Source: Clostridiales bacterium
GTDB lineage: Bacteria > Bacillota > Peptococcia > Peptococcales > Peptococcaceae
Assembly (NCBI GenBank): GCA_003343815.1
Contig: QAKL01000101.1
Span: forward strand, 1-38,466
Direction: 5' to 3'
DNA: 38,466 bases
In this document: positions 4,934 to 33,878 of the stretch, one piece after another
Numbering within the stretch: position 1 is the stretch's first letter
Layout of the letters: each line of letters opens with the position of its first letter
Made by a program: the position numbers and the translations under genes
Notes under the pieces: model-generated
Told to the model about the DNA's origin: nothing
The model's database searches: none
The model's input: only the letters and a program-made list of their open reading frames with translations

Positions 4934-5275
4934 ATGGCGCAAAGAAAAAATGCGAGTAATGTAAGTAATGCAAGTAAGCAAAAGTTTCGTCCGGCATGTA
5001 CTCCGGAGGCAAGAGAGAATCAGCTGATATCCTTGGCGGTGGATCTGGCGGAAAAGCAGCTCAGAGAAGGGACGGCATCGTCACAGGTAATCACTCACTA
5101 TCTAAAGCTGGGCTCGACGAAAGAAAAAATCGAGAAAGAGATTTTGGAGAAACAGAAAGATCTGATCGAGGCTAAAACCGAAAATTTGAAAGCGGCGCAA
5201 AGAATCGAGGAACTGTACAATAAGGCGCTGGATGCTATGAAAAGCTACAGTGGACACAGTGACGAGGATGAGTGA
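4934..5275 (+). CDS. Small basic coiled-coil phage protein, possibly small-terminase-like
   Basis: ATG 4934 lies 9 nt after AAAGGAGG (4917-4924). The segment REGTASSQVITHYLKLGSTKEKIEKE is remembered from packaging-region proteins. No clear HTH is present. The assignment is tentative. Confidence 0.3.
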   Translation: MAQRKNASNVSNASKQKFRPACTPEARENQLISLAVDLAEKQLREGTASSQVITHYLKLGSTKEKIEKEILEKQKDLIEAKTENLKAAQRIEELYNKALDAMKSYSGHSDEDE

Positions 5276-5769
5276 GCGGAGGGATATATTTGTGGCAGTA
5301 TAATTATGGGTACGGCGGTGAGCTCTATCACTATGGTGTCAAAGGTATGCGCTGGGGCGTAAGGAGATACCAAAACAAAGACGGGAGTTTAACACCAGAG
5401 GGAAAAAGTCGATATGCTATTGCGAAGCGCGCGAAAAATGGTATAATAGAAAGTAAAAAAGGATTTAGTATTCATCGAGATAAAATTGAAAAGTATATGT
5501 TAAAAGAAGGAGCTAAGCATTCACAAGATTTCTTTAATGTGGGGTACACGAAGAATGACGCAGTTAGACTTTATAAAGATATCGAACGACAGTATGATAT
5601 TAAGAAAGCAACTGGTTTTAGACAAAATGCTAATGGTTCAATTGGATACAGTATCTATATGGATTTAGGGATTATTAAGAAAAGAACATTCTGCACAGCG
5701 TGGATTATCGACGAGGATGGAGCTACTCCAAGATTAACAAGCGCATATAGGAGGGATAAGCGTGTATGA
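5272..5769 (+). CDS. HYGVKGMRWG-leader protein with DUF6883-like putative toxin C-terminus
   Basis: The start is GTG 5272, or TTG 5290 after GGAGG. The N-terminus is ELYHYGVKGMRWGVRRYQNKDGSLTPEG. The C-terminus KIEKYMLKEG..FFNVGYTKND...GYSIYMDLG...TAWIIDEDGATPRLTSAYR matches my recollection of DUF6883 (FF.LGY...Y.I.G.L...VWI...G..PR.VTAYP). Confidence 0.5.
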   Translation: MSGGIYLWQYNYGYGGELYHYGVKGMRWGVRRYQNKDGSLTPEGKSRYAIAKRAKNGIIESKKGFSIHRDKIEKYMLKEGAKHSQDFFNVGYTKNDAVRLYKDIERQYDIKKATGFRQNANGSIGYSIYMDLGIIKKRTFCTAWIIDEDGATPRLTSAYRRDKRV

Positions 5770-10366: not shown

Positions 10367-10498
10367 ATGGATATCGCGAAGATGAAGATGTATTATCAAA
10401 AGGAGCTGTGGAAGAAAGCCATGGTCGATAATCTTTTAAAATTAGGGAAAATCACCGAGGAAGAATATAGAGAAATCGTAGGTGATAGCGAAATATGA
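10367..10498 (+). CDS. XkdX-like small phage protein
   Basis: This 43-aa ORF is not in the track: MDIAKMKMYYQKELWKKAMVDNLLKLGKITEEEYREIVGDSEI. The pattern YY...LW......V..G.IT.EEY.EI.G is characteristic of XkdX. It shares an ATGA overlap with the next gene. Confidence 0.5.
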   Translation: MDIAKMKMYYQKELWKKAMVDNLLKLGKITEEEYREIVGDSEI

Positions 10499-11619
10499 GT
10501 GAAAAATATTTAGGTGCGGTAGTATCGCCAGCGGATAATCGCGACTATCAGGCGAAAGATTATATTTCTGCCGGGGTGCGACCGGAAGAATATTATCCGA
10601 AAGTATTATGCCCAGTGCATCATCAAGAGGCGGGTGACTGCACGGCATGGGCGCTCGCAACAGCAAAATTTTATCATGAATTAAGAGAACGCAAGAGCCA
10701 GTATGAATTCGCCCCGATATTTTCGTATTTCGACCGTACGGACGATGATTACACAGGTGAGGGGCGCTATATGCGTAAAGTGCTGGATAACGCACGGAAA
10801 AACGGTATTTGCTATGCAAAAGATTTGCCCAAAGGTGTGCCGCTTTCGGCTGACTATCCTAACGAGGAGATCAGTGCGAAGTTGGCGCCGTTATTTCCCA
10901 AAGCAAAGGAAAATTGCATAGCCGGGTATGCCTATACGAGCAAAACAGACGAGATTGCCGACTGTGTCTTTCAGCATGGAGCGGCGACTATCACGATTGA
11001 TGTACGAGTGAGTTTTGACGCGTTTGTCTTAAAGAATGAGAATAACTGGGTGCTACCTATGCCGAAAGACGGCGAGCGAGTGCGCGGCTGTCATGAAGTG
11101 TGCGCTGTCGGTTTCACTAAGGATGGGATCATTATCCAAAATAGTTGGGGCACGCCGTGGGGGTATAACGGATTCGCTGTCTTACCGTGGGACTATCCTA
11201 TATTAGAGGGCTGGACTTTGGTCGACGAAGTGAAGCAGTGGGATATCGTCGAACTAATCGTAGGCGAGAATAAGGCGTTTGTTAACGATAAAGAAATAGC
11301 AATAGACGCTCCGGCAATGATTAAAAACGGTAGAACATTCGTACCATTAAGATTTATCGGAGAGGCATTAGGCGCGAAAGTATTCTGGGAAAACGGGACA
11401 AGAACTATCGCAATCAAAGACAAGGATAACGTCATCACCATGCAGATAGGCGAGCGAATCGGGTATGTGAATAATTACGCGCATGTGCTGGACGAAGCTC
11501 CGTTTATTAAAAATGACCGCACTTTTGTGCCGTTAAGGTTTATCGGCGAGGCGCTGGGTGCTGATGTGGAATGGATCGCAAGTGAAAGAAAGATCGTGGT
11601 GAGGAGAGTGCGCAAATGA
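10495..11619 (+). CDS. Papain-family (C1) cysteine peptidase with 2x copper-amine-oxidase-N-like wall-binding repeats; candidate endolysin
   Basis: QEAGDCTAWA supplies the Q/C, GCHEVCAVGF the H, and IIQNSWGTPWGYNGF the NSWG motif. The C-terminus has two repeats, NGRTFVPLRFIGEALGAKV and NDRTFVPLRFIGEALGADV. No signal peptide is present. It follows the XkdX-like gene. Confidence 0.65.
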   Translation: MSEKYLGAVVSPADNRDYQAKDYISAGVRPEEYYPKVLCPVHHQEAGDCTAWALATAKFYHELRERKSQYEFAPIFSYFDRTDDDYTGEGRYMRKVLDNARKNGICYAKDLPKGVPLSADYPNEEISAKLAPLFPKAKENCIAGYAYTSKTDEIADCVFQHGAATITIDVRVSFDAFVLKNENNWVLPMPKDGERVRGCHEVCAVGFTKDGIIIQNSWGTPWGYNGFAVLPWDYPILEGWTLVDEVKQWDIVELIVGENKAFVNDKEIAIDAPAMIKNGRTFVPLRFIGEALGAKVFWENGTRTIAIKDKDNVITMQIGERIGYVNNYAHVLDEAPFIKNDRTFVPLRFIGEALGADVEWIASERKIVVRRVRK

Positions 11620-11972
11620 TCGAAAATGACAGTATATTAAATAGTATAAAGAAGCTTTGCAATATCGCCTATGATGATACACATTTCGATCGCGACATAA
11701 TCTTTCATATCAATGCGGCGCTGGGGGTACTGGCGCAAATCGGCGTCGTTGCAAAAGAGGGGATGATCATAAGCGATCAAAAATCAAAATGGACTGATCT
11801 CACAGAGGATAAGGTCATTTTGGGATTAGCGGTCGAGTATATCCAGCTCAAATGTGTGATCGTCTTTGACCCGCCGAGTGTGAGCGCGGTATTGGACGCT
11901 TATAAGGAGCGGATAAAGGAGCTAGAGTGGAGACTGCAAGAGCAGGCAGAGGAAAGTAACACGATAAATTAA
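11616..11972 (+). CDS. gp6-like head-tail connector protein (putative)
   Basis: ILNSIKKLCNIAYDDTHFDRDIIFHINAALGVLAQIGV...VFDPPSVSAVLDAYKERIKELEWRL resembles the connector/adaptor family seen in Firmicutes phages (from memory). Confidence 0.4.
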   Translation: MIENDSILNSIKKLCNIAYDDTHFDRDIIFHINAALGVLAQIGVVAKEGMIISDQKSKWTDLTEDKVILGLAVEYIQLKCVIVFDPPSVSAVLDAYKERIKELEWRLQEQAEESNTIN

Positions 11973-12886
11973 TTTAGATATTGAAGTGCTAAAGCAATTA
12001 ATGATAGACAGCGATTAAAAAAATAATCATAATATCGAATATCGTTAATATTTATTTTATCGGTTTCATGATGTCTGATACGGAAACTATTTCCAATGAA
12101 AGTTAGCGCTTTAAATTCTTCTGTGAATAGAATTTTATAGTCATCCTGTCCGCAAGACATATTTTCGATTATTTTATTTACGGATTGTTTTTTATCTAAA
12201 TCAGTGTAATATGTCTTTAATCGCTCTAATACATCCCATATTTTCTCAACTGCGTCTTTGTGGGACTGAAGATTTGGTTGCATGTGTTTTTCAATAGCTA
12301 TGTTGAATAATTCTTGTAACTCAGGTTCCGGGATTTGAGCACTCAACGAGATTATATCAGGGCTAAGCACTTCGGATAAAGCTAACTGTTCTATGAGACC
12401 GCTGTCATTGAGATTAAAGGGTATATTGTATTTTTGAAATAATGTATTAATTGCTGAACGAAAATCGAGTTTTTCTTTTGAAGATAACTCTTCATATTGG
12501 AGCTCAATTATGTCGAATAAAAATGGTGTAAAACATGCAGATAAGATCTCATAGTCGAGTGACGAATACATTTTAAATGATTTTAGATCTACAGCTGGAA
12601 CCTGAAGATATTCATTTAAGCGTTCTATAGCACATTCCAAAGCATCTGTGTATACTGTCCAATCGCTATAACGATCTGGCTGATAGCATATGGGTTCTCT
12701 AAAGTGAGATATTATTTTGCAAATGCGGTTTTTGACACTCGAATCAACAGAATAGCTAATATTGTCAGTGGGCTGACCTTGTCCATAGCTTATTAAATCT
12801 TTATAGCGTTCGGTAAAAAGGTTATCCGGGAAAAGCGATTGTATAGCGTTTACACATTTTACAGCGTTTTCAGAATTCTTGTTCAT
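11969..12886 (-). CDS. AT-rich opposite-strand hypothetical protein, candidate prophage defence/Abi-like moron
   Basis: This 305-aa ORF has SD AGGAGG upstream of its ATG at 12886. Its stop codon overlaps the stop of the convergent + gene. It is mostly helical. The C-terminus IGNSFRIRHHETD...YFFNRC is vaguely AbiJ/HEPN-like, but there is no canonical Rx4-6H. Confidence 0.4.
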   Translation of the reverse strand: MNKNSENAVKCVNAIQSLFPDNLFTERYKDLISYGQGQPTDNISYSVDSSVKNRICKIISHFREPICYQPDRYSDWTVYTDALECAIERLNEYLQVPAVDLKSFKMYSSLDYEILSACFTPFLFDIIELQYEELSSKEKLDFRSAINTLFQKYNIPFNLNDSGLIEQLALSEVLSPDIISLSAQIPEPELQELFNIAIEKHMQPNLQSHKDAVEKIWDVLERLKTYYTDLDKKQSVNKIIENMSCGQDDYKILFTEEFKALTFIGNSFRIRHHETDKININDIRYYDYFFNRCLSLIALALQYLN

Positions 12887-12981
12887 ATGGGAGTCCTCCT
12901 ATACTAAAGTAAAATACAAAAATATTTTACCATATATTTGTTGGAAAAGCTACTTGTAATATTAAAAGGAGGTGGTGAGCG

Positions 12982-13347
12982 GTGGATGAATTGTATCACT
13001 ACGGCGTCAAGGGTATGAAATGGGGTATCAGGCGCTATCAAAACTCGGACGGGAGCTATACGAAAGCCGGAAAGAAACGACGGCGGGAGGAACATCCCGA
13101 CTATACAAATGCTCATACCAAGAAACATGTCCGCGAGATGAGTAATGAGGAGTTAAAGAGCCGCAATAATCGATTACAGATGGAAAAAACATATGAGGGA
13201 CTAACTAAAGATCAGCATATCATCGGGCTGGGGATGAAATATGTAGGTACGGCTACAGCGATAACAGGCTCGGCATTAGCTCTGTATAGTAATGCAGATC
13301 GTATCATATCCATAGGGAAAAAGGCCGCGAAGCGAACGCTAAGATAA
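12982..13347 (+). CDS. HYGVKGMKWG-leader small protein with basic middle and C-terminal hydrophobic helix
   Basis: GTG 12982 lies 9 nt after AAGGAGG. The sequence is MDELYHYGVKGMKWGIRRYQNSDGSYTKAGKKRR...MSNEELKSRNNRLQMEKTY...GLGMKYVGTATAITGSALAL. Confidence 0.55.
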   Translation: MDELYHYGVKGMKWGIRRYQNSDGSYTKAGKKRRREEHPDYTNAHTKKHVREMSNEELKSRNNRLQMEKTYEGLTKDQHIIGLGMKYVGTATAITGSALALYSNADRIISIGKKAAKRTLR

Positions 13348-13359
13348 AAGGAGATAAAT

Positions 13360-15102
13360 ATGGCACTGTCGAATACTGCTGTACCGAAATATTACGGCAT
13401 GTTTCGAGATGCCGTAATGCGTGGAGAAATTGCGATCAATCGAGAAATCGAGATGGAGATGAATCGAATCGATAATTTGATCCGTGACAAAGACATTTAT
13501 TGTGACAATACGGCGGTGGAGGGGTTTATCCGCTACTGCGAAAACGAGATGACACTGACTGACGGGGCGGATTTAACGCTGCTGGATACTTTTAAACTGT
13601 GGGCGGAGGAGATATTCGGCTGGTATTATTTCGTGGAAAAGCAGGTGTGGGAGCCGTACGAGGACGGCGGCGGCCGCTATGTGCGCAAGTGGCAGAAAAA
13701 GCGTCTGGTCAATAAGCAGTATCTCATCATCGCCAGAGGGGCGGCGAAGTCGATGTATGGCGCGTGCTTACAAAGCTATTTTTTGAATGTCGATACGACA
13801 ACGACTCATCAAATAACTACGGCGCCGACGATGAAGCAGGCGGAGGAGGTATTGGCTCCGATAAGAACGGCGATCACCAGAGCAAGAGGTCCGCTCTTTC
13901 AGTTTTTAACTGAAGGGAGCTTGCAGAATACGACCGGGAGCAAAGCAAAACGCATGAAGCTCTCACCGACCAAAAAAGGAATTGAGAATTTCCTGACAGG
14001 TTCGCTTTTAGAAATCCGTCCGATGAGTATCCATAAGCTGCAGGGACTGCAAATCAAGGTGGCGACGGTGGATGAATGGCTCTCGGGGGATATCCGAGAG
14101 GATGTCATCGGGGCTATTGAGCAGGGTGCGAGCAAAGTGGATGATTATTTAATCGTGGCAATTTCCTCAGAGGGTACGGTGCGTAACGGCGCAGGGGATA
14201 CAATCAAAATGGAATTGGCGGATATCCTCAAAGGCGAGTATGTCAATCCGCATGTGTCTATCTGGTGGTATAAGCTGGATAATATCGAGGAGGTCAACAA
14301 CCCGGCGATGTGGGTCAAGGCTCAGCCTAATCTGGGTAAGACAGTGAGTTATGAAACCTATCAGCTGGAAGTGGAAAGAGCGGAGAAAGCACCGGCAGCG
14401 CGAAATGATATTTTGGCTAAAAGATTCGGTATCCCGATGGAGGGATATACTTACTACTTTACTTATGAGGAGACGATACCGCATAAGCGAAAATCGTATC
14501 ACGGTATGGCGTGTGCGCTGGGCGGAGACTTTTCCCGAGGGGATGATTTCTGTGCATTGACCTTTTTATTTCCCTTACGAGACGGAGCGTTTGGCGTGAA
14601 AACGAGGAACTATATTTCGGCGCTCACTTATCAGAAACTCGCTCCGGCGATGCGGATGAAATATGACGAATTTATCGAAGAGGGGACGCTAATCGTAATG
14701 GAGGGGACAGTCCTCGATATGGATGACATCTATGACGAACTGGCTGGATATATCGATGAGATGGAATATGATGTGCGGTGCTTTGGCTATGATCCATACA
14801 ATGCAAATAAGTTTGTCGCTCAATTTGAGGTTGATAACGGACCGTTTGGGATTGTAAAAGTACCGCAGGGTGCGAAGACGGAATCAGTGCCGTTAGGAGA
14901 ACTAAAAAGTTTATCCGAAGAAAGAATGCTGTTATTTGACGAGGAAATGATGAGCTTTACGATGGGGAACTGTATTACTTTAGAGGATACGAATGGCAAC
15001 CGCAAACTGTTGAAAAAGCGGCATGATGCAAAGATAGACGCGGTGGCAGCGATGATGGATGCGTATATCGCGTATAAGGAAAACAAAGATGTGTTTGAAT
15101 AA
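13360..15102 (+). CDS. terL: Terminase large subunit (Terminase_1 type)
   Basis: The product is 580 aa. LIIARGAAKS is Walker-A-like and VATVDEW is Walker-B-like. The C-terminal nuclease region is GGDFSRGDDF...QGAKTESVPLGELK...KKRHDAKIDAVAAMMDA. Confidence 0.85.
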   Translation: MALSNTAVPKYYGMFRDAVMRGEIAINREIEMEMNRIDNLIRDKDIYCDNTAVEGFIRYCENEMTLTDGADLTLLDTFKLWAEEIFGWYYFVEKQVWEPYEDGGGRYVRKWQKKRLVNKQYLIIARGAAKSMYGACLQSYFLNVDTTTTHQITTAPTMKQAEEVLAPIRTAITRARGPLFQFLTEGSLQNTTGSKAKRMKLSPTKKGIENFLTGSLLEIRPMSIHKLQGLQIKVATVDEWLSGDIREDVIGAIEQGASKVDDYLIVAISSEGTVRNGAGDTIKMELADILKGEYVNPHVSIWWYKLDNIEEVNNPAMWVKAQPNLGKTVSYETYQLEVERAEKAPAARNDILAKRFGIPMEGYTYYFTYEETIPHKRKSYHGMACALGGDFSRGDDFCALTFLFPLRDGAFGVKTRNYISALTYQKLAPAMRMKYDEFIEEGTLIVMEGTVLDMDDIYDELAGYIDEMEYDVRCFGYDPYNANKFVAQFEVDNGPFGIVKVPQGAKTESVPLGELKSLSEERMLLFDEEMMSFTMGNCITLEDTNGNRKLLKKRHDAKIDAVAAMMDAYIAYKENKDVFE

Positions 15103-15142
15103 AAATAACCGAAAGACGAGAAGTCGATCGGTTAAAAGAAAA

Positions 15143-16306
15143 TCAGTCATCACCACTAGGCAATGCTTTTAAATAAAGGGCATCGCCGCTCATCAAGATG
15201 TCTACAGGCTCATTATAGATAGCGTTAATGTGGTCAATTTTTTCAGCGAATATTTGAGATTTAGTGTCTTGGCAGCTGGCAAGCGATTTGGCTGCTTTAG
15301 AAAAGTGGGCTTTGTCGGTGCTGCGTAAAGCATAGGCACCGTCAGATAAATGCTCATGAATAGGGGTTTTACGCAAAAGAGGAGTTTTTTCAAAAACTAA
15401 GGAGGCGGCGGTTCCGGCTTTAGCGACGGTCTTAATGGCGTGATGCTCCAAGGCTCGCGCAGAAAGCGCATCTAAGTGTGCGCAGGATTTCTGGTAGTAA
15501 GCGTCATATTTAGTGGATACGTCGGATATTTGCTTAGAAACAGAGGAGAGGTAACCTGAACTGCTGTAGTTTTCGGTAAAGATGACTTCGGCATAGGAAG
15601 CGAGGGCGTAAATGGAAACACAAAGGCGGTAAATCTGAAGTGGTTTGCGCAAGGAATTGGCGGCTTTGTCGATATCGCCTTTCGTAACAATGCGCTCTTT
15701 ATCGGTAAAAACTTTGTCGATTTGCTTTTGATAAAATTCTATATTCTGATAAGCTTCATTTTTAGCGTCTTGGAGCTTGACAAAAACACCGGTTTTATAA
15801 AGCTCGTTTTGGCTACTGTATTTGTAGTTGCTCAAAGCATCGTGTAAATACAGAATAGTGCCGCGTATTTTGGATTGCTTATCTGTTTCGAGGAAATATA
15901 AAAGCTGCTCTTGCATAGCGGTGATTTGGTTAAGTTGGGAAGTAACGGCGGATATAGCAGCAGAGGCGCAAAGTGTAGCCGGATTAACCGCCGAAATTTT
16001 AACCGGCTGAAAGGAAGCCTTGCCGACAAGCTTGCCGTTTTTGAAAATCATATCACGGTATCCTTGTCCGTTCAAAGATTTGGTGGATAGGCGAATTGAT
16101 TTGCCGACATCGTCTACGGCGCGGTAAAGTAATTTGTCTTTTTTGAAAAAGTTTGGTATTTCCGAAACGCCCATGCCTAAGGATGATAACTGAGCGAAAG
16201 GAATTTTCTCATATTTAGAAAGCTCGACGGTAGAATCAAGCGGAATAAGCTCAAGCTCCAAAGGAGCGAGAAAGTCATAATTTTGGGCAGCTGAAGTAGT
16301 ATCCAT
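15143..16306 (-). CDS. Opposite-strand hypothetical protein inserted between terL and portal
   Basis: This 387-aa ORF has SD AGGAG (16316-16320, minus) 9 nt from its ATG at 16306. The first ~120 aa look beta-rich, followed by a long helical region. No TM segment and no family motif were recognised. Confidence 0.5.
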   Translation of the reverse strand: MDTTSAAQNYDFLAPLELELIPLDSTVELSKYEKIPFAQLSSLGMGVSEIPNFFKKDKLLYRAVDDVGKSIRLSTKSLNGQGYRDMIFKNGKLVGKASFQPVKISAVNPATLCASAAISAVTSQLNQITAMQEQLLYFLETDKQSKIRGTILYLHDALSNYKYSSQNELYKTGVFVKLQDAKNEAYQNIEFYQKQIDKVFTDKERIVTKGDIDKAANSLRKPLQIYRLCVSIYALASYAEVIFTENYSSSGYLSSVSKQISDVSTKYDAYYQKSCAHLDALSARALEHHAIKTVAKAGTAASLVFEKTPLLRKTPIHEHLSDGAYALRSTDKAHFSKAAKSLASCQDTKSQIFAEKIDHINAIYNEPVDILMSGDALYLKALPSGDD

Positions 16307-16340
16307 GAGTGTCGTCTCCTTGATAATATAGATTAAATAA

Positions 16341-16369
16341 AGTATAGCACTATCACAAAACTAACACAA
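16341..16369 (-). promoter_or_regulatory. Putative sigma-A promoter for 15143..16306
   Basis: On the minus strand the -35 is TTGTGT (16369-16364), followed by a 17-nt spacer and an extended -10, TGcTATACT (16349-16341). Confidence 0.35.
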
Positions 16370-16370
16370 T

Positions 16371-16393
16371 CCGAAAATTGGAAAAATTTTCGG
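16371..16393 (+). promoter_or_regulatory. Perfect 9-bp hairpin in the leader of 16406..16783
   Basis: CCGAAAATT-ggaaa-AATTTTCGG. The 3' arm runs into the G9 tract that acts as the SD. Confidence 0.5.
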
Positions 16394-16400
16394 GGGGGGG
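16392..16400 (+). repeat. G9 homopolymer tract, 5 nt upstream of ATG 16406
   Basis: The sequence cGGGGGGGGGtaaaaATG is read directly from the window. Confidence 0.9.
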
Positions 16401-16405
16401 TAAAA

Positions 16406-16783
16406 ATGTATTATTACAATGATAAAAATAATGAATTATATCACTACGGTGTCAAAGGGATGCGTTGGGGCGTAAGAAAACATAGGGACTCTGCTTCCTC
16501 ACAAACACGCGCTCAAAGAAAAAGCGAAAAACAGGCGTATAAACAAAAATTAAAAGCTGATGTCCGTATGAATAAAAAGGGCATGATCGCGAAAACACAG
16601 GATTTTGACGTAACGACGGGACGAGCTGTCAAAGGCAGTGAGCGCTACTATAATACAATGACCGGTGAAGAATACAGCAAGGCGTATATTAAAAAGGTGA
16701 ATAAAAAAACAGCAGTATCTCAATTAAGCAAAGTCGGTATTGCAACCGGGGCATATGTAACCGCACGCTATTTAGCACATTAG
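16406..16783 (+). CDS. HYGVKGMRWG-leader small protein
   Basis: MYYYNDKNNELYHYGVKGMRWGVRKH is followed by a Lys-rich middle and a C-terminal hydrophobic segment, VGIATGAYVTARYL. Confidence 0.55.
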   Translation: MYYYNDKNNELYHYGVKGMRWGVRKHRDSASSQTRAQRKSEKQAYKQKLKADVRMNKKGMIAKTQDFDVTTGRAVKGSERYYNTMTGEEYSKAYIKKVNKKTAVSQLSKVGIATGAYVTARYLAH

Positions 16784-16801: not shown

Positions 16802-18046
16802 ATGGATTTGATGAACAGGGCAAAAAATGCCTGGAATGTATTTATGAATAAGGATCCCACCCAATCATGGCATGATTATGGGATGAGCTACAGCTATCGA
16901 CCGGATAGGCCGAGGTTTACCGGCGGTAATGCGCGGACGATGGCGACACCTATTTATAATCGGATTGCAATGGACGCAGCGGCTGTGAATATCCGCCATG
17001 TGCTGCTGGATGAAAACGGGCGGTATAAAGAGGACGTGGAGTCGGGGCTGAATAACTGTCTGAAGCTGGAGGCAAATATTGATCAAAGTGCGCGCGCCTT
17101 TATCCAAGATGTGGTGATGAGTCTTTTGGATGAGGGATGTGTGGCGATCGTGCCGATAGATACTGATCGTAATCGGCTGACAGGTGAGGTGAAAGAGATA
17201 TTCACGCTGCGGACGGGAAAGATCGTCCAGTGGTATCCGGAACACATCAAGGTGAGCGTCTATAATGACCGCACGGGGCAAAGGGAAGAAGTCATCGTCT
17301 CGAAACGAAGTGCGGCAGTCATCGAAAATCCGCTCTATGCAGTGATCAACGAGAAAAACTCGACTATGCAGAGATTAATCAGAAAATTAAGTCTATTAGA
17401 CGCGGTGGACGAGGAAAACAGTGCGGGGAAATTTAATATGATCATCCAACTGCCGTATGCAGTGAAAACAGAGACGAGACGCAATCAAGCGGAGCGCAGG
17501 CGCAAGGATATGGAGGAACAGCTCAAGCAGTCGAAATACGGGATCGCTTATGTAGACGCGACAGAGAAGATAACGCAGCTGAATCGACCGCTCGAAAACT
17601 CGCTGAATGCTCAGGTAGAGTATCTGACAAATAAGCTTTACGGCGAGCTGGGGATGACGCTAAGCATTCTCGACGGAACGGCGGATGAAAAGACAATGCT
17701 GAATTATTATTCGCGGACGATCGAGCCGATTGTCAGTGAGATCGCAATCGGGATGAAAAGAGTGTTTCTAACTCAAGCGCAGCGTGAGAATCATGAGTCG
17801 ATCGAGGTTTATCGTGATCCGTTTAAACTGGTGCCGGTGAATAATATTGCCGAGATCGCCGATAAGTTTACGAGAAATGAGATTATGACTTCGAATGAGA
17901 TCCGTCAGGTCATCGGGATGAAGCCGTCGGATGATCCGAAAGCGGATGAGCTCCGCAACAGCAATATCAGCGCGTCTAAGGAAGAAATGCAGTATATGTA
18001 TGACGATGACGGCTATGAGGAGGGAGAAAATCAAAATGGATGGTAA
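16802..18046 (+). CDS. Portal protein
   Basis: The 414-aa product lies between terL and the protease-capsid gene and has an acidic C-terminal tail. The call rests on position and size. The portal family was not identified. Confidence 0.65.
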   Translation: MDLMNRAKNAWNVFMNKDPTQSWHDYGMSYSYRPDRPRFTGGNARTMATPIYNRIAMDAAAVNIRHVLLDENGRYKEDVESGLNNCLKLEANIDQSARAFIQDVVMSLLDEGCVAIVPIDTDRNRLTGEVKEIFTLRTGKIVQWYPEHIKVSVYNDRTGQREEVIVSKRSAAVIENPLYAVINEKNSTMQRLIRKLSLLDAVDEENSAGKFNMIIQLPYAVKTETRRNQAERRRKDMEEQLKQSKYGIAYVDATEKITQLNRPLENSLNAQVEYLTNKLYGELGMTLSILDGTADEKTMLNYYSRTIEPIVSEIAIGMKRVFLTQAQRENHESIEVYRDPFKLVPVNNIAEIADKFTRNEIMTSNEIRQVIGMKPSDDPKADELRNSNISASKEEMQYMYDDDGYEEGENQNGW

Positions 18047-19763
18047 CAAATATGATTTTAGCGGCTGGGCAACGAGAAATGATTTGCGCTGCTCGGACGG
18101 TAGGGTAATCATGCGTGACGCTTTTAAGGAAAATAACGGCAAAGTGGTGCCGCTAGTCTGGAATCATCAGCATAATGAGGCATTTAATGTGCTGGGGCAC
18201 GCTCTTTTAGAGAACAGACCCGAAGGAGTGTATGCCTATGGTACATTTAATGATACAGAGGTGGGCAGACATGCCAAAGAGATGGTGAAAAACGGCGATG
18301 TGTCGGCACTGTCTATTTATGCAAATGGGTTAAAGCAGCAGGGTAGTAATGTCCAGCACGGAACGATCCGCGAGGTAAGCTTGGTCTTAGCCGGGGCAAA
18401 TCCGGGAGCATTTATCGACACGGTGATGAGCCACCGCGAGGAGAATGAGGAAGAGGCAGTTATCTATACCGGCGAAAGACTGGAACTGTATCATGCGGAT
18501 GGGGCAGGAAACAATAATCTCAAGGAGGATAAGCAAATGGCAGGAGAAAGCGATAAAACTGTAGAGGATGTCATCAATTCGATGAATGAAGAGCAGAAAA
18601 ATGTAATGTATGCTTTGATCGGGCAGATCATGGAGGATGCAGGAATTGAAATTGACGAGGAGAGTGGGGAAATGAAACACAATTTATTTGACGGTGAAAC
18701 TATGCAGGATGAGGGTGAATTTTTAAGCCATGCGGAGATGGAGGCGGTAATTAACGACGCGAAGAGATATGGGTCTCTGAAAGAAAGCGCTCTGGCGCAC
18801 GGGATCGAGCAGATTGATTATTTGTTCCCGGAGGCGCAAAGCTTGAATACGCCGCCGTCCTTTATCCAAAGAGATATGGGCTGGGTCGGTAAGTTTATGA
18901 ATGCAGTGCATCATACGCCGTTTAGCCGTATCAAATCGACTTTCGCCGATATCACCGAGGATGATGCAAGAGCAAGAGGCTATATCAAAGGTAAACAGAA
19001 AAAGGATGAGGTATTCAGTCTTTTGAAAAGAACGACCAGTCCAACTACGATTTATAAGAAACAAAAGCTGGATCGCGACGATGTGATCGACATTACCGAT
19101 TTTGATGTGGTGAGCTGGCTTAAAGGTGAAATGCGCATGATGTTAGACGAGGAAATTGCCAGAGCTGCATTGGTCGGAGATGGCAGATTGTCCTCCAGTG
19201 ATGATAAAATTAACGAAAGCAATGTGCGCCCGATCTGGACTGATGAAGATTTGTACACAATTAAAGCAGCAATAGGTACGGCTAAGGATGCGAGCAGTGC
19301 GGAGAAAGCTAAGGCGTTTATCAGATGTGCGATTAAATCTCGTAAAGATTATAAAGGTACGGGTGAGCCGACACTGTACACTACCGAGGATATGCTGACC
19401 GAAATGCTTTTATTAGAAGATACTACGGGGCGTACAATTTACGACAGTGTAGAGAAATTGAGAACGGTGCTGCGCGTGAAAGAAATTGTGACAGTATCTG
19501 TCATGGAGGGATTGAGCCGCGAGGATAAAAGCGGTAATAATTGCGCATTGCTGGGTATCGTCGTTAATCCTGCGGACTACAACATCGGTGCTGATAAAGG
19601 CGGAGCGGTGAATATGTTTGATGATTTCGACATCGACTACAACGCGCAGAAGTATTTGATCGAGACTAGAATCAGCGGTGCTTTGATCAAACCGTACAGT
19701 GCAATTGCGATCGAGGATAAGCAGGCGAAGAGTGCTGTAAGCGATCCTGTGGAGAACCAGTAA
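18036..19763 (+). CDS. HK97-type prohead protease fused to major capsid protein
   Basis: ATG 18036 follows GAGGAGGGAG. The N-terminus FSGWATRNDLRCSDGRVIMRDAF...VPLVWNHQH...GDVSALSIYA is S78-protease-like. An acidic linker follows. The C-terminal ~330 aa are capsid-like (DYLFPEAQ...ALVGDG...IVVNPADYNIGADKGG). Confidence 0.7.
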   Translation: MDGNKYDFSGWATRNDLRCSDGRVIMRDAFKENNGKVVPLVWNHQHNEAFNVLGHALLENRPEGVYAYGTFNDTEVGRHAKEMVKNGDVSALSIYANGLKQQGSNVQHGTIREVSLVLAGANPGAFIDTVMSHREENEEEAVIYTGERLELYHADGAGNNNLKEDKQMAGESDKTVEDVINSMNEEQKNVMYALIGQIMEDAGIEIDEESGEMKHNLFDGETMQDEGEFLSHAEMEAVINDAKRYGSLKESALAHGIEQIDYLFPEAQSLNTPPSFIQRDMGWVGKFMNAVHHTPFSRIKSTFADITEDDARARGYIKGKQKKDEVFSLLKRTTSPTTIYKKQKLDRDDVIDITDFDVVSWLKGEMRMMLDEEIARAALVGDGRLSSSDDKINESNVRPIWTDEDLYTIKAAIGTAKDASSAEKAKAFIRCAIKSRKDYKGTGEPTLYTTEDMLTEMLLLEDTTGRTIYDSVEKLRTVLRVKEIVTVSVMEGLSREDKSGNNCALLGIVVNPADYNIGADKGGAVNMFDDFDIDYNAQKYLIETRISGALIKPYSAIAIEDKQAKSAVSDPVENQ

Positions 19764-32679: not shown

Positions 32680-32696
32680 TAATTATCATATTGGGG

Positions 32697-32720
32697 CTCT
32701 TTCTTTGTTTAAGAAAGGAG
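32697..32720 (+). promoter_or_regulatory. Hairpin occluding the int Shine-Dalgarno
   Basis: CTCTTTCTT (32697-32705) pairs with AAGAAAGGAG (32711-32720) with one bulged G. The loop is tgttt. The 3' arm contains the SD AAAGGAG of int. Confidence 0.4.
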
Positions 32721-32726
32721 AACACT

Positions 32727-33878
32727 ATGTCTGAGAAGAGAAAGGATAATCGAGGACGAATTTTACGGACGGGAGAGAGCCAGAGAAAAGACGGAACGTA
32801 TCAATATCGCTATGCTGATATTTTTGGTACCCGGCGCTATATTTATGATGCCAATTTAAACAAGCTCAGAGAAAAAGAGAAAGATGTTCAAAAACAGTTG
32901 GATCAAGGTCTTGATTATGCGAATGGAAAGATGACTGTAGTTGGACTATATGAGCAATATGTGAGTACAAAAAGAAATACGCGCGAGAATACAAAGAAAT
33001 CGTATGCTTATTTTGCCAAAATGTTGCATAATGACACTTTTGGTAGAAAAGAAATATTAAAAGTAAAAACTTTAGATGTAAAGAAGTGGCTTATAAAATT
33101 GCACGATAGTGGATTAAGCTATGGTACTTTAAATACATTAAAAGTTGTTGTAGGCGGAGCGTTTAAAATGGCGTGTGAAGAAAATATTATTTTGAAGAAT
33201 CCTTGTGCTTTTCCGCTGAGCAGTATAATAAGCAATGATGCGAATAAAAAAGAAGTGTTGTCTTTAGAACAGCAAAAAGAATTTCTGTCTTTTGTTAGAG
33301 ATGATGCATGGGGCAGTAAGTGTTATGATATAATAGTTGTATTGTTAAACACAGGTATGAGAATAGGCGAGCTTAGCGGATTGACTATTGATGATGTAGA
33401 TTTTGAAAGACGCAGGATAAAAATAGATCACCAATTACAATATTATGATAAAAAGGGGTATACGGTTGAAAAAGCAAAATCAAAAAGCGGTAATCGGGTG
33501 ATTCCAATGAGCGACGATGTATATGATTCATTGAAGCGATTATTGAAAAAACGCAATCAAATTGAGCGAGAGTTTGATGATTATGTTTTCTTAAATCGCA
33601 ACGGACGTCCGATTAGGAGTACAACATTTTCAAATTCTTTGAGGCAAATAAGAAAAAGATATAATGAAATCCATCAAGATAATCCATTGCCGAATATTAC
33701 TCCGCATAGTTTTAGGCATATGTTTTGCTCAAACATGGTTAATGCAAAAATGAATGCAAAAATGCTGCAATACATTATGGGTCATGCTGATATTTCGGTG
33801 ACTTTAAATGTGTATTCTCATATTGATTACGATACTGTTGAGAAAAGTATGCTTGATATTTTAAACGTAAAGAATTAG
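32727..33878 (+). CDS. int: Tyrosine integrase, Tn916 Int-like
   Basis: The N-terminus MSEKRKDNRGRILRTGESQRKDGTYQYRY is nearly identical in pattern to Int-Tn916. The catalytic region shows TGMRIGEL, HSFRHMF, GHADISVTLNVYSH. ATG 32727 follows AAAGGAG. The gene is AT-rich. Confidence 0.9.
   Translation: MSEKRKDNRGRILRTGESQRKDGTYQYRYADIFGTRRYIYDANLNKLREKEKDVQKQLDQGLDYANGKMTVVGLYEQYVSTKRNTRENTKKSYAYFAKMLHNDTFGRKEILKVKTLDVKKWLIKLHDSGLSYGTLNTLKVVVGGAFKMACEENIILKNPCAFPLSSIISNDANKKEVLSLEQQKEFLSFVRDDAWGSKCYDIIVVLLNTGMRIGELSGLTIDDVDFERRRIKIDHQLQYYDKKGYTVEKAKSKSGNRVIPMSDDVYDSLKRLLKKRNQIEREFDDYVFLNRNGRPIRSTTFSNSLRQIRKRYNEIHQDNPLPNITPHSFRHMFCSNMVNAKMNAKMLQYIMGHADISVTLNVYSHIDYDTVEKSMLDILNVKN

What the first reader, a model, noticed from the sequence alone, without database searches (positions are those of the whole stretch)
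15143..16783. 387-aa opposite-strand gene wedged between terL and portal, again paired with a leader ORF
TerL-portal adjacency is among the most conserved arrangements in tailed phages. Here it is interrupted by a minus-strand 387-aa ORF with its own plausible extended -10 promoter (16341-16369) and SD. Divergent from it is another HYG-leader ORF (16406..16783). This repeats the architecture at 11969..13347: unknown minus-strand gene, short divergent control region, then a leader protein. The recurrence suggests a two-gene module type rather than chance. The 387-aa protein has a non-helical N-terminal ~120 aa followed by long helices, and no motif I can place.
Basis: partly seen in the sequence, partly recalled or inferred. 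Interest (0 to 1): 0.7.

Follow-up and report, generated by a model that had tools for sequence, protein, structure and literature searches.

The report
Solitary accessory gene in prophage hotspot
The 387-aa gene is a real, self-contained accessory gene dropped backwards into a variable slot between the terminase and portal genes of a gut Clostridia prophage; it belongs to a large unnamed protein family that sits alone in variable, defence-gene-rich regions of bacterial genomes, and it is not a functional partner of the neighbouring "leader" gene.

Summary
ORF 15143..16306 (-) is a real gene: dN/dS is 0.12 against a 91%-identical copy. It has a Shine-Dalgarno site, a plausible extended -10 promoter and its own hairpin plus U-tract terminator. 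It lies between TerL and a DUF7211 ("HYG-leader") gene that precedes portal.

The "two-gene module" reading fails.
- In about 70 related phages (TerL 73-81% identical), DUF7211 genes fill the same two slots, connector->TerL and TerL->portal. They occur as 1-5 plus-strand copies with almost never a minus-strand partner.
- None of the 80 best-matching TerL loci other than the window phage's own copies carries a 387-aa homologue.
- Around 97 bacterial homologues (729 kb) there is no DUF7211 motif and no conserved neighbour.

The protein belongs to a large unnamed family: 739 clusters at 50% identity, about 390 aa, with no Pfam, PADLOC, NCBIfam, PHROG or PDB match. The model shows an N-terminal beta domain and a long helical bundle, and the conserved residues are structural rather than catalytic. 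Neighbours are mixed but repeatedly include McrBC, GmrSD, BREX, type I/III restriction enzymes, RhuM, AbiEii-like ATPases, Fic, integrases and transposases.

A 28%-identical member sits minus-strand in the sister slot of a related phage. In the window that slot holds an AbiJ-like/PDC-S32 gene.

Best reading: a solitary prophage moron, probably a non-enzymatic anti-phage or superinfection-exclusion protein. That function is inferred, not shown.

The parts
15143..16306 (-). 387-aa accessory (moron) gene. It belongs to a large unnamed family of about 390 aa with an N-terminal beta domain (28-102), a helical bundle (109-365) and C-terminal strands (370-380).
   Evidence: ORF. dN/dS 0.12. 739 homologous clusters. 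AF2 pLDDT 76. No Pfam, PHROG, PADLOC, NCBIfam or PDB hit.
15098..15134 (-). Putative intrinsic terminator of the 387-aa gene. The hairpin spans 15106-15134 and the minus-strand U-tract spans 15105-15098, overlapping the TerL stop codon. There is no U-tract on the plus strand.
   Evidence: Fold -12.9 kcal/mol, z=-4.2, 0 of 200 shuffles as stable. Sequence.
16307..16405 (.). Divergent control region. It holds the SD of the 387-aa gene (16315-16321), a putative extended -10 promoter on the minus strand (-10 at 16341-16346, TG at 16348-16349, -35 at 16364-16369), the palindrome CCGAAAATT-GGAAA-AATTTTCGG (16371-16393), and a G9 run (16392-16400) that serves as the SD of the DUF7211 gene.
   Evidence: Sequence. 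Hairpin -11.2 kcal/mol, z=-3.9. Almost invariant against L001. No Rfam match.
16406..16783 (+). DUF7211 ('HYG-leader') gene, 125 aa. It has a constant N-terminal leader (residues 8-27) and a swappable C-terminal part. It belongs to the plus-strand late operon and ends 18 nt before portal.
   Evidence: PF23847 E=2e-11. Homology with L001 breaks at 16493 and resumes at 16777. Family survey.
13360..15102 (+). Large terminase gene, upstream border of the slot.
   Evidence: PF20441, phrog_9.
16802..18046 (+). Portal gene, downstream border of the slot.
   Evidence: PF04860, phrog_12.
11969..12886 (-). Second, unrelated minus-strand moron in the sister slot (connector->TerL). It is a 305-aa AbiJ-like protein matching PADLOC candidate defence family PDC-S32. 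GC is 33%.
   Evidence: PDLC04995 E=1.3e-65. AbiJ_NTD4 29.1 bits, below the cut-off of 34. GC.
12982..13347 (+). DUF7211 gene directly upstream of TerL. This position is syntenic in most related phages.
   Evidence: PF23847 E=9e-10. A DUF7211 ORF is the last gene before TerL in the great majority of 72 related loci.

Best explanation
The 387-aa gene is a solitary accessory gene (moron) acquired by this integrated siphovirus-type prophage of a gut Clostridiales bacterium. It sits in one of two hyper-variable cargo slots that flank the large terminase gene. It is a single-gene transcription unit pointing against the late operon, with its own extended -10 promoter, SD and terminator. It would therefore be made in the lysogen and probably be damped by convergent late transcription during lytic growth (inferred). 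The protein belongs to a large unnamed family of cytoplasmic proteins of about 390 aa. The family's conserved positions are structural (Gly, Pro, aromatic, aliphatic) rather than catalytic. Members occur as stand-alone genes in variable, mobile-element-rich and defence-gene-rich neighbourhoods of Bacillota and some other phyla. The most likely role is a prophage-encoded anti-phage or superinfection-exclusion protein that works by binding or oligomerisation, with the beta domain and the conserved NYKYNWDN loop as a possible recognition surface and the helical bundle as effector or scaffold. This role is inferred and untested. The adjacent DUF7211 gene is not its partner. It is part of the phage's own plus-strand late operon and belongs to a polymorphic family with a constant leader and variable cargo that populates these slots across the lineage.
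For: Real gene under purifying selection. Own signals and terminator. Prophage status: integrase at 32691..33878 followed by host SBP and EF-G genes, and the exact protein is PWM50750.1 on a 104-kb Clostridiales MAG contig. Accessory status: absent from the 80 best-matching TerL loci other than L001/L002. The TerL-portal gap ranges from 14 to 3592 nt with variable content. GC is 43.2% against 47.5% (TerL) and 48.2% (portal). The family is large and unnamed. It is solitary: no neighbour cluster occurs in more than 5 of about 95 loci. Neighbours include GmrSD, McrBC, RhuM/PDC-S05, AbiEii-type AAA_21, C5-methylase, ResIII, type I R subunit, SNF2, Fic, integrases and transposases. BREX BrxL lies upstream of one member. 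McrBC lies in the same locus in L085 and directly adjacent in L209. A 28%-identical member was captured independently, also on the minus strand, in the connector->TerL slot of a related phage, L213 (TerL 74% identical). In the window that slot holds a PDC-S32/AbiJ-like gene. No invariant polar or catalytic residues in 81 sequences.
Against: No experimental or HMM link to any known defence family. The defence-neighbourhood signal is qualitative: roughly 10% of immediate neighbours, with no matched background control. Many neighbours are ordinary genes such as GNAT, NUDIX and tRNA methyltransferase. The fold has no informative match (Foldseek PDB best E=0.13, TM<0.25), so the mechanism is conjecture. 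The promoter is only a sequence match with a weak -35. The family motif was found in only 8 IMG/VR viral contigs, of which 3 carry a clear family member, so it is mainly a chromosomal gene rather than a typical phage gene.
Confidence: 0.55

Rival explanations
1. One reading: the minus-strand gene and the divergent DUF7211 leader gene form a functional two-gene module, for example an effector with its regulator, or a toxin with its partner, and this module recurs at 11969..13347.
For: Two instances in the window. A third in related phage L213, where a 28%-identical family member is divergent from a DUF7211 array. The control region is almost invariant between the window and L001.
Against: No DUF7211 motif in 729 kb around 97 bacterial family members. 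DUF7211 genes are present without minus-strand partners in about 70 related phages. The third window copy, 5272..5769, has no minus-strand neighbour. The 305-aa and 387-aa proteins are unrelated families. L219 carries the 387-aa gene without the 305-aa gene. DUF7211 genes are tightly coupled to the downstream TerL and portal genes (12 and 18 nt gaps).
Confidence: 0.06
2. A lysogenic-conversion or fitness gene unrelated to phage defence, for example an envelope or stress-related helical protein of the TelA, PspA or TerB type, carried by mobile elements.
For: All-helical bundle with weak, non-significant structural echoes of PspA/Vipp1, ClyA-type and chemoreceptor bundles. One UniRef entry names a member 'TerB family tellurite resistance protein'. 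Many neighbours are not defence genes.
Against: No Pfam TelA, TerB or PspA hit for any of 81 members, nor for P0161 itself. No TM segment or signal peptide: maximum KD19 is about 1.4. It is co-located with a PDC-S32/AbiJ-like gene in twin slots, and R-M, McrBC and BREX neighbours recur.
Confidence: 0.22
3. A phage life-cycle protein, such as an opposite-strand scaffold or structural protein, a packaging regulator or an anti-defence factor, needed by this phage.
For: Its position inside the packaging and head module. One BFVD homologue in an uncultured siphovirus.
Against: Absent from the 80 best-matching TerL loci other than L001/L002, which share the same TerL, portal and capsid genes. The great majority of homologues lie in bacterial chromosomal contexts without phage genes. 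The gene is antisense to the late operon.
Confidence: 0.07
4. An immunity protein that protects the lysogen from toxin domains carried by DUF7211 proteins of the same or of superinfecting phages.
For: Some DUF7211 proteins carry polymorphic-toxin domains such as Gln_amidase. The gene is adjacent to DUF7211 genes in the window and in L213.
Against: Immunity genes of polymorphic toxins are typically small and lie immediately downstream on the same strand (PMC5576092). Here the gene is large, upstream and divergent. The window's 125-aa DUF7211 protein has no recognisable toxin domain. Bacterial homologues lack DUF7211 neighbours. The cargo swap between the window and L001 left the 387-aa gene in place.
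Confidence: 0.05

Closest known systems
Phage morons and prophage cargo hotspots, e.g. lambda bor (from my own knowledge) and the P2 old/tin and Z/fun hotspots (Rousset et al. 2022, PMC9122126; bioRxiv 10.1101/2024.10.15.618418)
   Same: An accessory gene with its own promoter and terminator, sitting between conserved core genes, variable among close relatives, with deviating GC. The neighbouring slot carries a candidate defence gene.
   Different: The slots here flank the large terminase (connector->TerL and TerL->portal) in a Clostridia siphovirus lineage. They are co-populated by arrays of DUF7211 genes. The cargo is antisense to the late operon. No anti-phage activity has been shown.
Single-gene abortive-infection or candidate defence proteins (AbiJ-like/PDC-S32, which is the window's 305-aa gene; other PADLOC PDC-S singletons)
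   Same: A stand-alone, fast-diverging gene of about 300-400 aa, found in prophages and in variable islands next to R-M, McrBC and BREX.
   Different: The 387-aa family matches no PADLOC, Pfam or NCBIfam model. It has no recognisable enzymatic or nucleic-acid-binding domain.
ClyA/AhlB/Hbl-type alpha-helical pore-forming toxins and JukB (weak Foldseek echoes)
   Same: About 300-400 aa, a long antiparallel helical bundle plus a small beta element.
   Different: The matches are not significant (E of 0.13 or more, TM 0.12-0.24). The beta domain is N-terminal rather than an internal tongue. There is no signal peptide and no clear hydrophobic membrane segment. This is not a member.
MuF polymorphic toxins of temperate phages (Jamet et al. 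2017, PMC5576092). This comparison concerns the neighbouring DUF7211 gene, not the 387-aa gene.
   Same: Encoded in the packaging module next to portal and terminase. A constant N-terminal part with variable C-terminal cargo that includes toxin domains.
   Different: The constant part of DUF7211 is only about 25 aa and is not a MuF domain. The genes lie upstream of portal or TerL, often in tandem arrays. Most cargo is unrecognisable. Virion association has not been tested.

Membership tests
Phage moron / hotspot cargo | Present in some but absent from closely related phages at the same position | tested here: met
   Absent from the 80 best-matching TerL loci other than L001/L002. The TerL-portal gap ranges from 14 to 3592 nt with variable content.
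Phage moron / hotspot cargo | Own promoter and terminator, forming an autonomous transcription unit | tested here: inconclusive
   Sequence-level only. TTGTGT-17-TGcTATACT plus SD. Hairpin plus U-tract, -12.9 kcal/mol, z=-4.2. Control region conserved. No expression data.
Phage moron / hotspot cargo | Base composition deviating from the flanking core genes | tested here: met
   GC is 43.2% against 47.5% (TerL) and 48.2% (portal), a modest difference. The sister moron is at 33.1%.
Known anti-phage defence families (PADLOC-DB v2) | HMM match to a known or candidate defence protein | tested here: not met
   No hit for the window protein. Only scattered weak hits among the 81 members (3 to AriA, the others to single members).
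Known anti-phage defence families (PADLOC-DB v2) | Preferential location next to known defence genes (defence islands) | tested here: inconclusive
   Neighbours include GmrSD, McrBC, RhuM, AAA_21, ResIII, type I R, SNF2, Fic and BrxL, but there was no background control and the majority of neighbours are not defence genes.
Known anti-phage defence families (PADLOC-DB v2) | Protection against phage on expression | not testable with these tools
   Needs wet-lab phage challenge.
   0 motifs in 729 kb around 97 bacterial homologues. The only other co-occurrence is in the related phage L213, inside a DUF7211-populated slot.
   About 140 distinct DUF7211 ORFs lie in slots of about 70 related phages, nearly all with no minus-strand neighbour. 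Window copy 5272..5769 has none.
Phage structural or scaffold protein | Conserved and syntenic among related phages, and restricted to phage genomes | tested here: not met
   (absent in relatives). (mostly non-phage chromosomal contexts). No PHROG hit.
ClyA-type alpha-pore-forming toxins | Significant structural similarity and a hydrophobic membrane-inserting element | tested here: not met
   Foldseek E of 0.13 or more and TM of 0.24 or less. Maximum KD19 about 1.4, no signal peptide.
DUF7211 (PF23847), for ORF 16406..16783 | Pfam HMM above the gathering threshold, with the motif near the N-terminus | tested here: met
   43.4 bits against 27, residues 8-27. H13, G15, G18 and W21 are invariant across 123 sequences.
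PDC-S32 / AbiJ-like, for the 305-aa ORF 11969..12886 | PADLOC PDC-S32 HMM match, and Pfam AbiJ_NTD4 | tested here: inconclusive
   PDLC04995 E=1.3e-65, but only over residues 135-304. AbiJ_NTD4 scores 29.1 bits, below the cut-off of 34.

The most novel reading that the evidence does not exclude
The 387-aa protein represents a new, widespread family of single-gene, non-enzymatic anti-phage defence proteins (beta domain plus helical bundle; at least 739 clusters at 50% identity across Bacillota and other phyla). Gut Clostridia prophages repeatedly capture members, antisense, in cargo hotspots that flank the terminase gene. These hotspots are otherwise filled with a polymorphic family of DUF7211-led, possibly virion-delivered, effectors.
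Probability: 0.35. Interest if true: 0.6.

Novelty: new member of a known kind. Interest (0 to 1): 0.4.

Why it matters
If family members protect against phage, this adds a common, so far unnamed single-gene defence family of gut Firmicutes with no enzymatic domain. The work also shows that the neighbouring "leader" genes are a separate phenomenon: a polymorphic family with a constant leader and variable cargo inside the packaging module. That family may be the more interesting lead.

Tried and rejected
- The word-indexed protein search found only the protein's own cluster. The full HMMER scan was needed to find the family.
- Pfam, PHROGs, PADLOC, NCBIfam and PDB sequence and profile searches of the protein and of 81 family members gave no family.
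- The single-sequence AF2 model was unusable (pLDDT 51).
- The MSA-based model gave no significant PDB fold match. In BFVD it matched only one uncharacterised homologue.
- tblastn against GenBank phages gave no match, and against plasmids one weak hit. megablast of the region against phages gave nothing.
- The search for related loci with the whole family alignment failed because no stretch was conserved enough. I replaced it with a motif scan for NYK[YF]NW[DN]N.
- The UniRef label 'TerB family' for one member is not supported by Pfam.
- No Rfam family and no flanking direct or inverted repeats delimit the insertion.
- The two divergent control regions are not homologous to each other.
- Several minus-strand ORFs in the slots of related phages look like spurious antisense ORFs, being low-complexity. 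I did not count them as genes.
- Literature searches for DUF7211, PF23847, the leader motif and PDC-S32 found nothing relevant.
Full report
**What is there**

The window is an integrated siphovirus-type prophage with nearly all genes on the + strand. A Tn916-type tyrosine integrase (32691..33878) is followed by host genes for an NMT1-type binding protein and EF-G. The 387-aa protein is identical to PWM50750.1 from a Clostridiales MAG, on a 104-kb contig.

Around the finding the gene order is:
- lysin (10495..11619)
- connector (11616..11972, PF24829)
- [305 aa, minus strand]
- DUF7211 (12982..13347)
- TerL (13360..15102)
- [387 aa, minus strand]
- DUF7211 (16406..16783)
- portal (16802..18046)
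- protease-capsid fusion

The window holds three copies, and the third (5272..5769) is fused to DUF6883.

**Is the 387-aa ORF a gene?**

Yes. Against a 91% nt-identical copy (L001), dS is 0.33, dN is 0.040 and dN/dS is 0.12.

Its expression signals are as follows:
- An AAGGAGA SD lies 8 nt before the ATG.
The -35 is weak, so the generic scan did not list it.
- The 99-nt divergent control region is almost invariant between the window and L001, although the CDS differs by 9%.
- Downstream, a hairpin at 15106-15134 (-12.9 kcal/mol, z=-4.2) is followed by a U-tract only on the minus strand, overlapping the TerL stop codon.

It therefore looks like a one-gene transcription unit antisense to the late operon. 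Late + strand transcription has no U-tract at that hairpin. It presumably reads through the gene in antisense to reach the DUF7211 and portal genes (inference).

**The protein family**

The protein has no hit in Pfam, PHROGs, PADLOC, NCBIfam or the PDB sequence search. The word-indexed search found only its own cluster. A full HMMER scan of 1.84 billion representatives found 739 clusters at E<=1e-3 and 82 at E<=1e-30. Hits are mostly full-length, about 380-400 aa and 25-33% identical.

None of 81 aligned members hits a Pfam family consistently, and PADLOC gives only scattered weak hits. A profile search of the PDB is empty. NCBI calls the members "hypothetical protein". One UniRef "TerB family" label is not supported by Pfam.

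With the alignment, AF2 gives pLDDT 76 and pTM 0.70. The model has a beta-rich domain (28-102), seven long helices (109-365) and two C-terminal strands. Foldseek finds nothing significant in the PDB. The best E is 0.13 and TM is below 0.25, for generic long helical bundles such as ClyA, AhlB, JukB and HAMP-Tsr. In BFVD it finds one uncharacterised homologue.

Nearly invariant positions are Gly, Pro, Tyr, Phe, Ile, Leu and one Asn. There is no catalytic-looking constellation. There is no signal peptide and no convincing TM segment (maximum KD19 about 1.4). A conserved loop motif, NYK[YF]NW[DN]N..YK, lies between two helices.

**Test of the two-gene module idea**

I tested this in four ways.

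1. Related phages. The 80 best IMG/VR loci have TerL 73-81% identical.
   - The connector->TerL slot almost always ends with a DUF7211 gene directly before TerL.
   - The TerL->portal slot is empty (116 nt or less) in 18 of 70 loci. In about 40 of 70 it holds 1-5 tandem + strand DUF7211 genes.
   - Credible minus-strand genes are rare.
   - None of these loci except the window phage's own copies (L001/L002) has a 387-aa or 305-aa homologue.
2. Bacterial genomes. A motif scan returned 97 loci with a family member. They are mostly Lachnospiraceae, Oscillospiraceae, Erysipelotrichaceae, Eubacterium, Bacillus/Neobacillus and Acetobacterium, with a few Bacteroidota and Chloroflexota. Their 729 kb contain no DUF7211 motif.
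3. Conserved partners. No neighbour protein cluster recurs in more than 5 loci, so there is no conserved partner of any kind.
4. Independence of the two morons. They are unrelated families (AbiJ_NTD4/PDC-S32 against the unnamed family), and L219 has the 387-aa gene without the 305-aa gene.

One further co-occurrence exists. In L213, a related phage (TerL 74% identical), a 28%-identical family member lies on the minus strand between the connector gene and a DUF7211 array. This is an independent capture in the sister slot. It shows that the slots, not the leader genes, are the common denominator. Morons land upstream of the DUF7211 genes because those genes are tightly coupled to TerL and portal, with gaps of 12 and 18 nt.

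**What the context says about function**

Annotated contexts of homologues:
- BrxL/BREX genes lie upstream of one member (L086).
- SbcCD-like genes, a helicase-DUF2726 gene and McrBC accompany another (L085/L216).
- PT-HINT polymorphic toxins accompany a third (L083).
- McrB and McrC lie directly adjacent, with ImuB-like and WYL genes, in L209.

Among 150 immediate and 133 second neighbours, the recurrent families are:
- restriction and defence-type: GmrSD, McrBC, RhuM (PDC-S05), AbiEii-type AAA_21, C5 methylase, ResIII, type I R subunit, SNF2, Fic, mad3/mad8;
- mobile-element genes: integrases, transposases;
- ordinary or regulatory genes: HTH regulators, GNAT, NUDIX and others.

This is the signature of variable islands rich in mobile elements and defence genes. 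I could not run a matched background control, so the enrichment is qualitative.

Several observations point the same way:
- the twin slot holds a PDC-S32/AbiJ-like gene;
- the gene has lysogen-type signals;
- GC is modestly lower than in the flanks (43.2% against 47.5-48.2%);
- the family diverges fast.

The most likely role is therefore a prophage-encoded defence or superinfection-exclusion protein that acts by binding or oligomerisation rather than catalysis. I put about 0.85 on "independent moron, not a DUF7211 partner". I put about 0.4-0.45 on "anti-phage defence".

**Comparison with what is known**

The arrangement is a classical moron or hotspot situation, as in the P2 old/tin and Z/fun hotspots (PMC9122126; bioRxiv 10.1101/2024.10.15.618418). 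Here it lies at terminase-flanking positions in a Clostridia phage lineage. The protein is not a member of any named family tested.

The DUF7211 genes resemble MuF polymorphic toxins, which also lie in the packaging module and combine a constant N-terminus with variable C-terminal toxin domains (PMC5576092). They are not MuF proteins.

**Verdict**

The module interpretation is rejected in favour of a solitary cargo gene in a hotspot. This is a new member of a known kind, with moderate interest as a lead to an unnamed candidate defence family.

Noticed in passing
window 5272..5769, 12982..13347, 16406..16783; L003-L082 slots; L213:3321-4205: DUF7211 (PF23847) behaves as a constant N-terminal leader of about 25 aa (H13, G15, G18, W21 invariant) on hyper-variable C-terminal cargo of 105-444 aa. 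It occurs in 1-5 tandem plus-strand copies around TerL in this phage lineage. A few cargos are recognisable: Gln_amidase papain-fold toxin, GNAT, 2H phosphoesterase, DUF6883 and HTH. This resembles a polymorphic-toxin or effector system, possibly virion-delivered. I found no literature on it.
   Followed up: partly
window 16493..16777 vs L001 (reverse complement): The window and L001 are 94-98% identical on both sides. Homology breaks exactly after the DUF7211 leader (the first 29 aa are identical) and resumes just before portal. The C-terminal cargo of this gene has therefore been swapped as a cassette (125 aa against 155 aa).
   Followed up: yes
window 11969..12886 (-): The 305-aa minus-strand gene matches PADLOC candidate defence family PDC-S32 (E=1.3e-65, C-terminal 170 aa) and, weakly, AbiJ_NTD4. 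Its GC is 33% against about 45% for the prophage. It is a second, unrelated moron with its own extended -10-like promoter (TGGTAAAAT) and SD.
   Followed up: partly
window 12982..13347 and most related loci: No recognisable small terminase gene was found where it was looked for. The ORF directly upstream of TerL, the usual TerS position, is a DUF7211 protein in the great majority of related phages. Both small DUF7211 proteins in the window end in a hydrophobic C-terminal helix.
   Followed up: no
window 16371..16400: A perfect 9-bp-arm palindrome, CCGAAAATT-GGAAA-AATTTTCGG, abuts a G9 homopolymer that serves as the SD of the DUF7211 gene. L001 has GGGGGGAGGGG at this site. It could be an operator, or a slippage-prone tract affecting translation.
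   Followed up: partly
window 15143..16306 and 11969..12886: Plus-strand GC skew stays positive (+0.19 and +0.09) across the two minus-strand genes. Their coding strands are therefore C-rich, unlike every other gene in the prophage. Strand bias here follows the DNA strand, not the coding sense.
   Followed up: no
L219 (Logan SRR31464337 contig, 4160 nt): A variant contig carries the identical 387-aa gene. TerL is split in two, and DUF7211 and DUF7211-DUF6883 genes lie directly upstream of it. The connector, the lysin and the 305-aa gene are missing. It may be a rearranged or deleted derivative, or an assembly artefact.
   Followed up: no
window 17931..19763: The prohead protease (Peptidase_S78) and the major capsid (Phage_capsid) domains are encoded in one 610-aa ORF (phrog_3270). 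As listed, its start overlaps the end of portal, and gene callers place the start later (575 aa).
   Followed up: no
L044:7752-8195 (-) and L030:4101-4817 (-): Other credible minus-strand cargo in the same slots of related phages. One is a 148-aa protein with a lipoprotein-like signal (LACCS) and no Pfam hit. The other is a 239-aa EcsC-family protein.
   Followed up: partly
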